A stretch of 64,000 nt of DNA, taken from contig OX597841.1 of assembly GCA_951406725.2 (NCBI GenBank), positions 12,400,001 through 12,464,000 of the forward strand, read 5' to 3'. The notes beneath the pieces were generated by a model. That model made no database searches, was not told the origin of the DNA, and saw only the letters and a list, made by a program, of their open reading frames with translations. This DNA comes from Octopus vulgaris. Lineage: Eukaryota. This document shows, piece by piece, positions 7,626 to 15,893 of the stretch; the stretch's first letter is position 1, and every line of letters begins with the position of its first letter. The position numbers and the translations under genes were made by a program.

Positions 7626-7703
7626 GCGGCTGAAGAAGGCCACAGACATACATTATGCATTGTTATAAATCTGTCTAATAAAGGCCCGAAACATATGTAC
7701 CGC
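7626..7703 (+). ncRNA. Type I hammerhead ribozyme, extended stem II, in a ~250-bp (TA)n-embedded element (7559-7810)
   Basis: GCGG-CTGAAGA-AGGCC...GGCCC-GAAA-CATATG-TA-CCGC: stem I GCGG/CCGC, canonical core, palindromic stem III ACATATGT, GUA cleavage triplet. Confidence 0.85.
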
Positions 7704-7863
7704 TGAATCCTTCGCATCATGTTTTTATTTTGATCAATTTACTCCACCACCTACACCACCAAACGGTATACACAGGTGCTTATAATTATCAAGTACTCAC
7801 CCCGAATTTCTATATATATATATATATATATATCAGAAAAAAGCAACAAGAATGGATCAATAT

Positions 7864-7950
7864 TTGGGTACAATTGTTTCGTACGAAGACAGCTTTATTA
7901 AGGCTACAAACATTGCAGTAAATATAAGTGACCCGTACTCATCAGCCGAA
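7864..7950 (-). ncRNA. Type I hammerhead ribozyme, extended stem II, in (TA)n-embedded element (7833-8237)
   Basis: Minus: TTCGG-CTGATGA-GTACG...CGTAC-GAAA-CAATTG-TA-CCCAA; perfect 5-bp stem II base, palindromic stem III ACAATTGT. Confidence 0.85.
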
Positions 7951-8840
7951 AAAACATCTGAGTTCTCCAAACATCTAAGGGGGTGATGTTACACTCCTGA
8001 AACATCAGGGATAGTTCTATAAAAATAAGATTTTGGTAACAAATGGACTTAAAATGAAAATGAAAATGAAGATGTAAATCCATCCATATTGAAGAAAGTT
8101 TGATTTCTGGAGACATGAGGAGAGGTATCATACTCACAGAATATGTATTTATCCATATTTAGTCCATAATAAAGTGTGTCTCCTGATGTGTGATGATATT
8201 TTGGTTACATTTCTGAGAATTTCTCCAAACCCCAAACTATATATATATATATATATGTGTATATATATATATATATATATATATATATATATATATATAT
8301 ATATATATATATATATATATGTATATATATATATATGTATATATATGTATATATATATATGTATATATATATATGTATATATATATATATATATGTATAT
8401 ATATGTATATATATATATATGTATATATATATGTATATATATATGTATATATATATATGTATATATATATATATGTATATATATATATGTATATATATAT
8501 ATGTATATTTATATGTATATATATATATATATATATATATATACACACATATATATATGTATATATATATATGTATATATATGTGTATATATATATATGT
8601 GTGTGTTATATATATATATATATATATATATATATATATATATATATATATATACACGACGCGTTTCTTTCAGTAGAAGTTAACTTGATGAACCTTTATT
8701 AGTTTCCTGTAGTGGCCCTTTATGTTAGGGAGCTGTTAGAGTTGGCCCCTTTATTTGTGTGTATTGGTGAGAGGGGAGGGAGTAAGTCTATCTATCTGTC
8801 TGTCTATCTATCTATCTATCTATCTATCTATCTATCTATC

Positions 8841-10004
8841 TTTGTGAGGCACGCTTTCCCGCAGCTCGTCTCCATGACCGAACTGCAGTCGTGGATCAAA
8901 AAGAGGCCGAGGAAGGGCGAATGGCACCGCGAGTGTCGCGTTGCTCTCAAGCAACTCTGCCGTCCTGGGTCGACCTTAAGTGACTTCAACACAACCAAAG
9001 CATTCTATAGGGGTTTAGTGGAGGGGAGGTACGACGACGAGCTCGGGGCGAACCTGGACGTCGACGAGGAGTACCTGACCCGCCTGTTCAGGACGACTTT
9101 CGGGCCAGGGCCCATGGACAACTTCCAGAGATCCCTGGCCTGGCAGTGCTACCGAGAAGCGCTACCCGTTCGGGATAAGCTCTAAGACACGGCTCGAGAA
9201 ACACGGGGCCGACCTGCCCGAGATGCGGTCAGAGCGACGAAACCGTTCTGCACGCACTCGTGCAGTGTCCAACAATTTCCCACCTGTGGGCTTATGTCGA
9301 ACAACTGCTGTCACGTGTGGGACGAGTCGGTTTATCAGCTGAGTCTATCGTCAATATTGTCACGCCTCCTTCCTTCAAACGGGAAGGAAGAGCTATTTTC
9401 ATCATCCTTGTGGCTATGGCGAAAGAATGTATCTGGTGGACGCGTCTGAAAGGATTGGAGACAAACACTTTCCTCTCTGGTCAATCTCTCATCAACTTCT
9501 TCAAGTACCACTTGAAAAGGAAAGTGAGAGTAGAGAGGCAAGTTTTGTCTAGCGAATGTTTTAAAAAAAGATGGGTGAATGTAGCAAGAATGGCACGTAT
9601 GAATGACGAAGCCACCTTGAGCATAGTCCTATGAACCCAGAAATCGAAAACAGAGAGTTGCTTATTTGCAAAAAAAAAAAAAGAAATATAAAATGTGACA
9701 TCATTGACCGAGGTTACCGTGGTCTTTTCCGTAGGCTTTTCTTTCCACGGGTAAACCTCACCTGTCCTCCCCTTTACACTTCATATTGACATTTCTGTGA
9801 TAACGATCCCTATTGATCAATTTTTTTCCTCCCCCCTTTTTTTAAACCCCCTTTTTTTGTCCTCTTTCTCTCCTTTTACGATCCCTTTTGATCGAAACTC
9901 CCCCTTCCTTTTTTTTTTTTTTTTTTCTTAAACCTTCAAAAGAAAAGCTCTACCTTGTAATTTGTTCTATCTGTGTGCAGCCCTGTGTGGCTAATAAAGA
10001 AACA
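8841..10004 (+). mobile_element. 5'-truncated Tx1/L1-type LINE (zf-RVT C-terminus + 3' UTR) inserted in (TATC)n
   Basis: LAWQCYREALPVRDKL then CPRCGQSDETVLHALVQCPTISHLW (CCHC zinc-binding region after RT), ORF ends 9634; 3' UTR ends GGCTAATAAAGAAACA followed by (TATC)n; (TATC)n also at the 5' side. Confidence 0.88.
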
Positions 10005-10700
10005 TATCTATCTATCTATCTATCTATCTATCTATCTATCCATCTATCTATCTATCTATCTATCTATCTATCTATCTATCTATCTATCTATCCTTCTATC
10101 TATCCTTCTATCTATCTATCTATCTATGTATCTATCTATCTATCTATCTATCTCTCTCTCTCTCTTTCTATCTATCTATCTATCTATCTATCTATCTATC
10201 TATCTATCTATCTATCTATCTATCTCTCTTTCTATCTATCTATCTATCTATCTATCTATCTATCTATCTATCTATCTCTCCCTCTTTCTATCTATCTATC
10301 TATCTATCTATCTATCTCTCTTTCTATCTATCTATCTATCTATCTATCTATCTATCTATCTATCTATCTATCTCTCTCTCTCTCTTTCTATCTATCTATC
10401 TATCTATCTATCTATATATCTATCTCTCTCTCTTTCTATCTCTCTCTCTCTCTCTCTCTATCTATCTATCTATCTATCTATCTATCTATCTATCTATCTC
10501 TCTTTCTATCTATCTATATATCTATCTATCTATCTATCTATCTATCTATCTATCTATCTATCTATCTATCTATCTATCTATCTCTCTCTGTCTATCTATC
10601 TATCTATCTATCTATCTATCTATCTATCTATCTATCTATCCATCTCTCTCTCTCTCTCTATCTATCTATCTATCTATCTATCTATCTATCTATCTATCTA
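10005..10700. repeat. (TATC)n/(TC)n compound microsatellite
   Basis: Directly visible. Confidence 0.97.
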
Positions 10701-14260: not shown

Positions 14261-14295
14261 ATTTAACGTTTCCAGCGGAGCTCTTCGTCAGAAAC
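14261..14295 (-). ncRNA. Minimal type I hammerhead ribozyme in (TA)n-embedded element (about 14202-14362)
   Basis: Minus: GTTT-CTGACGA-AGAGC TCC GCTG-GAAA-CG-TT-AAAT; ACGT palindromic stem III typical of Penelope-associated minimal hammerheads. Confidence 0.75.
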
Positions 14296-14481
14296 ATAGG
14301 AAAAGGAAAGATCCAAGGAAGGGAAGACGGAGGAAAAAATCGCCAACGGTACACTCGCGGTCATATATATATATATATATATATATATATATATATATAT
14401 ATATACATACACACATATATGTATACATTAACATATTAGCCTCTACACACATTTTTTCTCTCCTTGTTTTTTACTGTGTCC

Positions 14482-14517
14482 CTTTCTGTAGAAGAGCGTA
14501 GGCTCGAAACGTAAAAG
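14482..14517 (+). ncRNA. Minimal hammerhead-like motif with A6U core change (element about 14440-14610)
   Basis: CTTT-CTGTAGA-AGAGC GTAG GCTC-GAAA-CG-TA-AAAG; same architecture and downstream CCTGAGCGT motif as the 14261 copy. Confidence 0.65.
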
Positions 14518-15806
14518 ACTTTTTTTCCATTCCTGAGCGTTATACAAATACATCTGTTTGATTTGTACACCACCTGTCTTCATCTTTTGTTTTTTTCGTA
14601 AACTCTCCCTATATATATATATATATATATATATATATATATATATATACACATATATATATAGACATATATACATATACATATATACATACATACAGAT
14701 ATATATATATTTATATATACATATATATATCCATATATATATATATATATATATATATATATATATATATATATATATATATATATATATATATATATAT
14801 ATATATATATATATATATATATATATATATATATATATATATATATATATATATATATATATATATATATATATATATATATATATATATATATATATAT
14901 ATATATATACATATATATACATATACATACATATATGCACGCACACACACATATTCCCAAGAGAATTGTAAGGGGTTTCTTCGGCTGTTACTTAAGTTTC
15001 GTGTTTCAACTCATGAAACCGGATTAGGAATTCTGTTTCGGACGCTTTGGTCAAGTGGAAATCTGAGACTTGAAAAGGACGACAAGTTCACTCCGATTCT
15101 GACGTCCACAACATCAACAGCAATAACATCTCATATGTATAATAATAATAATAATAATAATAATAATAATAATAATAATAATAATAATCACAGCACATAC
15201 CCAAGGCACACAGAGCTGCGCCCGGTAGTGAAGTGAAAGCACGCGATAAAAAATATACTACTGAATAATAATGATGATGATGATAATAATAACAACAATA
15301 ATAATAATGATGATGATGATGATGATGATGATGATGATGATGATGATAAAGGATAAAATCGTTAAAAATTTTCTGAGTGGTCAGTATATAAAATAAAGCT
15401 ATTAAGGACTGTGGGTATGTATAAAAGTCTCATTTATTTCCCTCAGTACGTTTTACTGATGAGGGAAAGTCATTGAACCAATCGAGAATTTGATGAGTCC
15501 AAGGTTAACTAAATTATTTTATGAATTTCTGTCAGCCTACTCTTTCGAATTCAACACGTGTGTACTACAAAAGTGATGGCATTAAGTGCTTTGTCGATTT
15601 AGCGTCTATTTTTAGCAGAGGCATGGCCACTTAATTATAATCATATATATATATATATATATATATATATATATATATATATATATATAGATTCAGTTGA
15701 ATATGGTACTTAAGTTAAAGGCACCAGAATTTGGTATGGTATTATCCATATAATTCAAAATGGGGTGATTACAATCAAAATAAGCAACAAGGATATCCAG
15801 AGGTAA

Positions 15807-15893
15807 TGCAGTACGATCGTTTCATGCGACTCCATTTAATTGAACAATGCAATCATTACATCAATTTAAAATGTAGAGCAATCATCAGCTGCA
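15807..15893 (-). ncRNA. Type I hammerhead ribozyme, extended stem II, in (TA)n-embedded element (15690-16112)
   Basis: Minus: TGCAG-CTGATGA-TTGC...GCAT-GAAA-CGATCG-TA-CTGCA; perfect 5-bp stem I, palindromic stem III ACGATCGT. Confidence 0.88.

What the first reader, a model, noticed from the sequence alone, without database searches (positions are those of the whole stretch)
7626..15893. Extended-stem-II hammerheads with a poly(A)-signal hexamer placed just upstream of the self-cleavage site
Seen: three sequence-dissimilar hammerheads (7626-7703 +, 7864-7950 -, 15807-15893 -) have an unusually long (about 50-60 nt) stem-loop II. Each carries AATAAA (7677-7682; 7899-7894) or ATTAAA (15840-15835) on its 3' side, about 17, 25 and 23 nt before the GUA cleavage site. 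Known: this is the normal spacing between a metazoan poly(A) signal and its cleavage site. Inference: ribozyme folding and CPSF-dependent 3' processing may compete or cooperate at the same position (polyadenylated mRNA versus cleaved retrotransposition template). The AT-rich background makes chance co-occurrence possible.
Basis: partly seen in the sequence, partly recalled or inferred. Interest (0 to 1): 0.75.

Follow-up and report, generated by a model that had tools for sequence, protein, structure and literature searches.

The report
Poly(A) signal inside retroelement hammerhead ribozyme
Three repeat ends in this animal DNA carry a self-cutting hammerhead RNA whose enlarged loop holds a conserved-looking polyadenylation signal aimed at the ribozyme's own cut site, which suggests a testable role for these ribozymes, though neither cutting nor tailing has been shown.

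Summary
Three type I hammerheads have intact cores, 51-58 nt between the core halves, and AATAAA/ATTAAA 17, 25 and 23 nt before the cut. All have an 8-nt palindromic helix III (dimer type), lie between (TA)n tracts, and look like 3' ends of 5'-truncated Penelope-like elements (PLEs); no PLE ORF link was shown. Two are multi-copy families in public runs of three organism labels. In the HH2 family the only listed hexamer variant is AATAAA to ATTAAA. Six of 7 diverged read-end variants keep AWTAAA at fixed spacing while neighbours change. All three also have a U/GU-rich stretch starting 17-22 nt past the cut, completing a poly(A) site. Corrections: the insert is weakly structured, not a long stem; genomic copies run 35-122 nt past the cut with no A-tail, so the copied RNA was read-through or multimeric, not simply the cleaved product. 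Poly(A) use and self-cleavage are untested. Published descriptors (loop II up to 10 nt) and Rfam miss these. I found no report of this arrangement; my look-ups of earlier scan notes found none either. Verdict: new variant of PLE hammerheads; the regulated switch is plausible but unproven.

The parts
7561..7810 (+). Element E1: short repeat copy between (TA)n tracts, carrying HH1; inferred 3' end of a 5'-truncated Penelope-like element
   Evidence: 70 nt from the upstream TA tract to the core; 111 nt from the cut to the downstream tract; multi-copy in all 4 runs laid
7626..7703 (+). HH1 type I hammerhead: stem I 7626-7629/7700-7703, core 7630-7636, helix II 7638-7641/7683-7687, GAAA 7688-7691, palindromic helix III 7691-7698, predicted cut after 7699
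7677..7682 (+). AATAAA, 17 nt before the cut, in a predicted 3'-side bulge of stem-loop II (unpaired probability about 1.0); the only sense AWTAAA in E1
   Evidence: no variant listed in X15, X17 or X1, one X9 contig has A>G at 7677
7720..7734 (+). U-rich downstream element (+21 to +35; 11 U of 15)
   Evidence: a diverged subfamily stays U-rich here and then enters (TA)n (loose end at 7726)
7811..7833 (.). (TA)n tract at which E1 and E2 meet tail to tail
7834..8238 (-). Element E2: repeat copy between (TA)n tracts, carrying HH2; summed contig depth falls about 100-fold from the hammerhead towards the 5' side, as for 5'-truncated copies
   Evidence: X15: 118,036 at 7869-7891; 10,761 at 7984-8006; 450-2,200 at 8030-8230; depth is not a copy number
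7863..7951 (-). HH2 type I hammerhead: stem I with one C.C mismatch, core 7945-7939, helix II 7938-7934/7885-7881, GAAA 7880-7877, palindromic helix III 7877-7870, predicted cut after 7869
7903..7919 (-). Hairpin inside loop II of HH2; the majority alleles at 7906 and 7919 improve its pairing, and the most variable site 7911 lies in its loop
7894..7899 (-). AATAAA, 25 nt before the cut; the family variant at 7898 gives ATTAAA; the only sense AWTAAA in E2
7838..7852 (-). U/GU-rich downstream element (+17 to +31; 11 U of 15)
15690..16113 (-). Element E3: sequence between (TA)n tracts, carrying HH3; copy number not tested
15807..15893 (-). HH3 type I hammerhead: 5-bp stem I, core 15888-15882, 3-bp helix II flanked by an extra U on each side, GAAA from 15823, palindromic helix III 15820-15813, predicted cut after 15812
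15835..15840 (-). ATTAAA, 23 nt before the cut (a second sense hexamer lies far upstream at 16080)
15776..15790 (-). U/GU-rich downstream element (+22 to +36; 10 U of 15); shares a short motif with the E2 tail

Best explanation
The three motifs are the 3'-terminal (pLTR-type) ends of 5'-truncated Penelope-like retroelements, or their non-autonomous derivatives, inserted in (TA)n. Each end is a PLE-type, dimer-dependent hammerhead whose loop II is enlarged to about 40-50 nt and holds the element's own RNA polymerase II poly(A) signal. The hexamer and the U/GU-rich element 17-22 nt past the ribozyme cut frame a CPSF/CstF site on the same few bases that the ribozyme cuts. A transcript reaching this end has three possible fates, exclusive per molecule. 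(i) Unfolded, it is cleaved and polyadenylated into mRNA. (ii) Folded as a monomer (stems I and II formed, helix III too weak to cut), the site is masked and the RNA reads through; such RNA, or a multimer, is what was copied into the genome. (iii) Paired with a second hammerhead through the palindromic helix III, it self-cleaves. Shown: anatomy, multi-copy status of two families, hexamer conservation, downstream U/GU element, copies extending past the cut. Inferred: PLE origin, use as a poly(A) site, ribozyme activity, and masking.
For: Cores and spacings; 0 long-span hits in 60 shuffles. Three different perfect 8-nt palindromes in helix III give duplexes of -7.0, -6.4 and -10.0 kcal/mol against +2.4 as a monomer hairpin. 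This is the dimer architecture described for metazoan PLE hammerheads (PMC4209133). The extra bases flanking helix II in HH1 and HH3 match Hydra-clade PLE hammerheads, which also prefer (TA)n and lie near the 3' end (PMC8557442 Files S1/S2). Family data (2354, 357, 109 and 13 contigs laid): of 40 variant rows shown, the only one inside the HH2 hexamer is 7898, AATAAA to ATTAAA (23%, 54%, 68%, 6% of depth in X15, X17, X1, X9), while neighbouring 7906, 7911 and 7919 vary at 55-96% in X15. That is 1 of 18 possible single changes, and the one giving the second canonical signal (canonical status from established knowledge). Of 24 loose-end rows shown, 9 span the hexamer position; 8 carry AATAAA/ATTAAA and 1 TATAAA. 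They form 7 distinct variants, 6 canonical. In the 6 variants where the core can be placed, the hexamer ends 13-14 nt (HH2 type) or 4 nt (HH1 type) before GAAA, with changed neighbours (read by hand). U/GU-rich 15-mers start at +21, +17 and +22; hexamer plus such an element occurs at 0.23% of 56,856 background positions. An opposite-strand joint in X9 and one in X15 fit PLE inverted 5' ends.
Against: No poly(A) site was observed: no A-run among the 24 loose ends shown, though contigs cannot show ends and the RNA status of X1/X9 is a guess. 28 of 68 variant rows and 102 of 126 loose-end rows were hidden, so further hexamer variants may exist. The HH1 family is homogeneous overall, so its invariant hexamer says little, and one X9 contig has it changed. 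No PLE protein was found upstream: Pfam gave 0 families for 6 frames; homolog search 0 of 3 candidates; 3 phmmer hits are repeat artefacts. The hexamer is predicted unpaired in HH1 but paired in HH2 and HH3 (0.16, 0.12), so the three folds do not treat it alike. Whole-motif MFE folds do not give the hammerhead and are no more stable than shuffles (z 0.27, 0.68, -0.89). The U-rich threshold was set after seeing the three cases.
Confidence: 0.6

Rival explanations
1. Cooperation: the ribozyme makes the cut, and the upstream hexamer then directs poly(A) polymerase to the 5' product once the 2',3'-cyclic phosphate is removed, so the ribozyme replaces CPSF73.
For: The distance fits, and all three cut after UA. 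Ribozyme-made ends are reported to accept poly(A) in yeast (PMC3203177, passages; that paper cites a study whose title says such an mRNA lacks a tail, so the support is mixed).
Against: A downstream U/GU element, needed for canonical cleavage but not for tailing a pre-cut end (established knowledge), is present in all three. Monomeric PLE hammerheads of this type showed no detectable cleavage in vitro (PMC4209133).
Confidence: 0.12
2. The hexamer is kept for another reason, for example pairing inside loop II, a tertiary contact, or a binding site for the element's protein; its likeness to a poly(A) signal is incidental.
For: It is predicted to pair with a U-rich 5' strand in HH2 and HH3. The lizard PLE hammerhead needs its protein to cleave (PMC11167929).
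Against: It is unpaired in HH1. The common ATTAAA allele weakens the predicted pairing (unpaired probability 0.14 to 0.49), and no compensating change is among the rows shown. The variation follows poly(A)-signal rules, and a downstream U/GU element accompanies it.
Confidence: 0.15
3. Chance and shared ancestry in AT-rich loops: an ancestral copy happened to carry the hexamer and the families inherited it without selection.
For: The inserts are 62-71% AT. HH2 and HH3 may be distant kin. AWUAAA is common near published PLE hammerheads (11 of 56 just 3' of the cut, by eye).
Against: The per-copy chance is 0.03-0.05. It persists at fixed spacing in diverged subfamilies whose flanking bases changed. 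It is the only sense hexamer in 250 nt of E1 and 403 nt of E2.
Confidence: 0.08
4. These are solo monomers of non-LTR retrozymes (hammerhead circles) rather than PLE ends.
For: Type I hammerheads, short copies, and no ORF found. Retrozyme monomers are common and related to pLTRs (bioRxiv 10.64898/2026.07.22.740005).
Against: No tandem units: each element is single in the window. The depth gradient is one-sided, as for 5' truncation. The minimal PLE-type helix III and the (TA)n targeting point to PLEs.
Confidence: 0.1

Closest known systems
Minimal type I hammerheads of metazoan Penelope-like elements (Cervera and de la Pena 2014, PMC4209133; read: main text parts 1-2 of 4, word search of the whole text, all 3 parts of the supplement PDF)
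   Same: Type I topology, short stem I, palindromic minimal helix III implying dimers, extra base before helix II, dispersed single copies of many dissimilar families.
   Different: Loop II is 3-9 nt in all 56 aligned examples, and the descriptor caps it at 10 nt; here the core halves are 51-58 nt apart. By eye, AWUAAA lies just 3' of the cut in 11 of 56 and in loop II in 1 of 56 (Culex, 12 nt before the cut); the main text never mentions polyadenylation.
Hydra-clade (and Neptune) PLE 3' ends (Craig et al. 2021, PMC8557442; read: passages, supplement parts 1-2 of 59 and three searches in it)
   Same: (TA)n targets, hammerhead near the 3' end, extra base on both sides of helix II, 30-40-bp tails.
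   Different: Loop II is 3-10 nt in the 25 sense Hydra rows of File S2; 5 of 25 have AWTAAA in the 5' flank, 37-54 nt before the cut, none in loop II (by eye). Long loops (29 and 35 nt) are listed only for two spike-moss PLE-X1 motifs, without a hexamer. The listed octopus Hydra-1 hammerhead and the octopus Naiad ends are different sequences.
Mammalian Clec2 3'-UTR discontinuous hammerhead (as described in review PMC6765202; passages)
   Same: A hammerhead with a large insertion that acts on mRNA 3'-end fate.
   Different: There the cut lies upstream of the poly(A) signal and removes it; here the hexamer is upstream of the cut, inside the ribozyme.
Retroviral LTR poly(A) control, such as the HIV-1 poly(A) hairpin (recalled, no call)
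   Same: A terminal repeat in which RNA structure can mask a poly(A) signal so that one copy is read through.
   Different: No ribozyme is involved there; here the masking is only predicted and differs between families.

Membership tests
Type I hammerhead ribozyme | Core CUGANGA, GAAA and NUH in type I order with three helices | tested here: met
   HH2 stem I has one C.C mismatch in this copy
Type I hammerhead ribozyme | Match to an Rfam hammerhead model | tested here: not met
   No hammerhead family among 3 and 2 matches at E up to 10; expected for a 40-50-nt insert
Type I hammerhead ribozyme | Self-cleavage | not testable with these tools
   needs an in vitro assay
PLE minimal hammerhead | Short palindromic helix III/loop III (dimer type) | tested here: met
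   three different perfect 8-nt palindromes
PLE minimal hammerhead | Loop II of 3-10 nt (published descriptor) | tested here: not met
   51-58 nt between the core halves against the descriptor; hence a variant, not a canonical member
Penelope-like element | Telomerase-like RT plus GIY-YIG ORF linked to the end | tested here: inconclusive
   No hit. A TLYYGLN stretch in E2 resembles the endonuclease end motif seen, but 16 listed variant sites there show no third-position bias (5/6/5 by codon position, by hand)
Penelope-like element | 5'-truncated dispersed copies, short 3' tail past the hammerhead, no poly(A) tail, (TA)n targets, inverted 5' segments | tested here: met
Penelope-like element | Direct pLTR repeats flanking an ORF | not testable with these tools
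   no whole genome held; copies in the window are single
Metazoan poly(A) site | AWUAAA 10-30 nt upstream and a U/GU-rich element downstream of the cut | tested here: met
   conservation
Metazoan poly(A) site | Observed poly(A) addition | not testable with these tools
   only contigs could be laid; no run on record as RNA
Non-LTR retrozyme | Tandem units each with a hammerhead | tested here: not met
   no second copy of any element in the window; not testable genome-wide
Naiad PLE (cephalopod) | Match to published Naiad 3' ends | tested here: not met
   0 hits for 6 short motifs in the supplement (line breaks can hide hits); the three octopus Naiad ends seen have another core order or none

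The most novel reading that the evidence does not exclude
These PLE families enlarged hammerhead loop II to put their poly(A) signal at canonical distance from the ribozyme cut. The fold then works as a three-way RNA switch: unfolded RNA is polyadenylated for translation, the monomer fold masks the site and yields the read-through RNA used for retrotransposition, and the dimer self-cleaves. The hammerhead's main job in vivo would be control of 3'-end processing rather than cutting, which would explain why PLE hammerheads are conserved yet barely active.
Probability: 0.3. Interest if true: 0.8.

Novelty: new variant of a known kind. Interest (0 to 1): 0.58.

Why it matters
The in vivo role of PLE hammerheads is an acknowledged open question (PMC7761336, passages; PMC8557442). 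A conserved poly(A) signal inside the ribozyme, aimed at its own cut site, gives a precise hypothesis that existing 3'-end data and simple reporters can test. It also shows that abundant animal hammerhead families with long loop II escape the published descriptor and Rfam, so counts in such genomes are likely too low.

Tried and rejected
Whole-window Rfam scan: the 150 rows shown of 518 were microsatellite-driven miRNA matches, none a hammerhead. The repeat finder was swamped by microsatellites. In a first check, 0 of 126 loci matched by the script had both stems of 4 bp or more, and 8 were missed by the script. A rerun on all 134 with looser rules passed 7, all on contigs of 53-64% GC and none with the hexamer; 1 of 134 had a hexamer in range and failed stem II. 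I read these as chance, so there is no cross-phylum test. Search for a PLE ORF: 16 window ORFs against Pfam gave 1 weak zf-RVT hit at 9179-9631, below its cut-off and not part of these elements; 6 upstream frames gave 0; homolog search 0 of 3; phmmer's 3 hits were repeat artefacts. Sequencing-run search: no RNA holder listed, which is no evidence either way. An intron inside loop II was considered and dropped: the only candidate in HH2 is about 35 nt, and no joint skipping it is listed. Naiad identity was rejected. A long paired stem II was rejected. The A.C and U.U at the base of helix II were first read as decay, then rejected. Literature searches with no report of a poly(A) signal in a PLE hammerhead loop. 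Word searches for polyadenyl-/AATAAA gave 0 in PMC11167929, PMC8557442, PMC2377424, PMC3846280 and PMC4209133, and 0 for polyadenyl/polyA in the retrozyme preprint. Two relevant papers, PMC5850863 and PMC5785218, were not available and may describe long-loop variants; the preprint's supplements were not seen. Look-ups of earlier scan notes by place, sequence and words showed nothing on this arrangement.
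Full report
1. Observation. The window is microsatellite-rich (about 30% masked) and full of dispersed repeats; it resembles cephalopod DNA (my recollection of the SINE sequence, no call). The hexamers and their distances of 17, 25 and 23 nt to the cut are exact. The motifs are not chance: a strict long-span descriptor gives 2 hits in the window (HH2 fails only on a stem I mismatch) and 0 in each of 60 shuffles. 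Given each insert's composition, a hexamer in the 10-30 nt range has probability 0.043, 0.028 and 0.052. One correction: helix II is 3-7 bp and the insert is only weakly structured (z -0.25 to -1.66), so this is a long loop II rather than a long stem.

2. What the motifs are. All three have a perfect 8-nt palindrome as helix III, each with a different sequence; it is unstable as a monomer hairpin (+2.4 kcal/mol) and stable as an intermolecular duplex (-6.4 to -10.0). This is the dimer-type hammerhead of metazoan Penelope-like elements (PMC4209133). The odd A.C and U.U at the base of helix II in HH1 and HH3 match Hydra-clade PLE hammerheads (PMC8557442 File S2). Each lies in a 250-424-nt segment between (TA)n tracts, and E1 and E2 meet tail to tail at one tract. 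(TA)n is the recorded target of Hydra-clade and cephalopod Naiad PLEs. Laying four public runs on 7570-8230 (2354, 357, 109 and 13 contigs; organism labels A, D, A, B; four studies; X15 may be the source sample) showed both E1 and E2 to be multi-copy. Summed depth over E2 falls about 100-fold from the hammerhead towards its 5' side, and two opposite-strand joints are listed. I read these as 3' ends of 5'-truncated PLEs. The link to a PLE ORF was sought and not found, so membership rests on RNA and insertion features. Rfam does not detect them.

3. Is the hexamer kept? In one search, 40 of 68 variant rows were shown. Within the HH2 hexamer the only row is 7898, which turns AATAAA into ATTAAA, at 23%, 54%, 68% and 6% of depth in the four runs; nearby loop positions 7906, 7911 and 7919 vary at 55-96% in X15. 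In HH1 the hexamer has no listed variant in three runs and is changed in one X9 contig (depth 30 of 86); that family is homogeneous, so this weighs little. Of 24 loose-end rows shown (102 hidden), 9 cover the hexamer position. These letters were not needed for alignment. Eight carry AATAAA or ATTAAA and one TATAAA. They reduce to 7 distinct variants, 6 canonical. In the 6 variants where the core can be placed, the hexamer ends 13-14 nt (HH2 type) or 4 nt (HH1 type) before GAAA while the flanking bases differ (read by hand). Together these give the full layout of a metazoan poly(A) site (established knowledge) centred on the ribozyme cut.

4. How it most likely works. The hexamer and downstream element are most simply the element's own poly(A) site. 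Canonical processing needs the stretch between them open, while the hammerhead ties it into helices I-III, so on one molecule the two exclude each other (inference). The genomic copies continue 111, 35 and 122 nt past the cut with no A-tail, so the RNA that was copied had been cut by neither reaction here, or was circular or multimeric. This agrees with in vitro work in which unprocessed RNA was the dominant substrate of a PLE and no reads ended at the hammerhead cut (PMC11167929). I therefore propose three fates: polyadenylated mRNA, read-through template favoured by the catalytically weak monomer fold, and dimer-dependent self-cleavage (confidence 0.6 for the PLE end with a real overlapping poly(A) site; 0.3 for a regulated switch). 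Against: no tail was seen, and none could be with contigs; whole-motif MFE folds do not give the hammerhead; the hexamer is predicted open in HH1 but paired in HH2 and HH3. Rivals are cooperation (0.12), a structural or protein-binding role (0.15), chance with shared ancestry (0.08) and retrozyme monomers (0.10).

5. Comparison and novelty. Published PLE hammerheads have loop II of 3-10 nt, and the 2014 descriptor caps it at 10; two spike-moss motifs with 29- and 35-nt loops are flagged as deviant. Poly(A)-like hexamers next to PLE hammerheads are not rare in those tables: by eye, 11 of 56 just 3' of the cut, 1 of 56 in a short loop II, and 5 of 25 Hydra rows in the 5' flank. The main texts of the two papers gave 0 hits for polyadenylation words. 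So a poly(A) signal near the ribozyme is probably a general, unremarked PLE trait, which lowers the surprise. The placement inside an enlarged loop II at canonical distance from the cut, kept across subfamilies, is what I could not find in print (searches; two relevant papers unavailable). The Clec2 ribozyme has the opposite geometry. Scans of viral and metagenome collections gave only chance-like matches. Earlier scan notes cover other PLE ribozyme variants but not this one.

6. Papers as seen. PMC4209133: main text parts 1-2 of 4, whole-text word search, supplement PDF complete. PMC8557442: passages, supplement parts 1-2 of 59, three supplement searches. bioRxiv 10.64898/2026.07.22.740005: part 1 of 5 and passages. 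PMC11167929, PMC6765202, PMC7761336, PMC2377424, PMC3846280, PMC6962438 and PMC3203177: passages only. PMC5850863 and PMC5785218: nothing. The HIV-1 poly(A) hairpin, the CPSF/CstF spacing rules and the ranking of hexamer variants are recalled.

7. Verdict. Observation confirmed; interpretation partly supported; a new variant of a known kind; interest 0.58.

Noticed in passing
window 14482-14517 (+); related 14223-14354 (-) and 53873-53995 (-): Short-loop minimal hammerheads of other families (core at 14486 with one mismatch; the two minus-strand copies are 76% alike and decayed), also beside (TA)n. The 14486 motif has no AWTAAA within 60 nt, a within-genome contrast to the long-loop type.
   Followed up: partly
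PMC8557442 File S5, 3' ends of two octopus Naiad consensuses: The core blocks occur in the order GUA, GAAAC, CUGAUGA with complementary flanks, which looks like a rearranged complete hammerhead in a clade reported to lack one. Judged by eye only.
   Followed up: no
PMC4209133 Fig. S3 and PMC8557442 File S2: AWUAAA lies within about 15 nt 3' of the cut in 11 of 56 published minimal hammerheads and in the 5' flank of 5 of 25 Hydra-clade rows, which suggests a general link between PLE hammerheads and poly(A) signals.
   Followed up: partly
window 8052-8237 (-): Frame with TLYYGLN about 45 codons before a stop and 200 nt upstream of HH2, resembling the end of a PLE GIY-YIG domain; no database support and no codon-position bias.
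   Followed up: yes
window 7903-7919 (-): Hairpin within HH2 loop II whose majority alleles improve pairing (domain energy -11.8 to -17.5 kcal/mol), with the most variable base in its loop; function unknown.
   Followed up: partly
window 9179-9631 (+), 9517-9857 and 23865-24196: Decayed non-LTR retroelement piece (weak zf-RVT hit, below cut-off) with an 80% identical inverted copy.
   Followed up: no
window, e.g. 530-722, 2686-3079, 5600-5776, 7370-7508: At least three abundant SINE-like families with about 10 or more copies each in the window, many ending at (TA)n.
   Followed up: no
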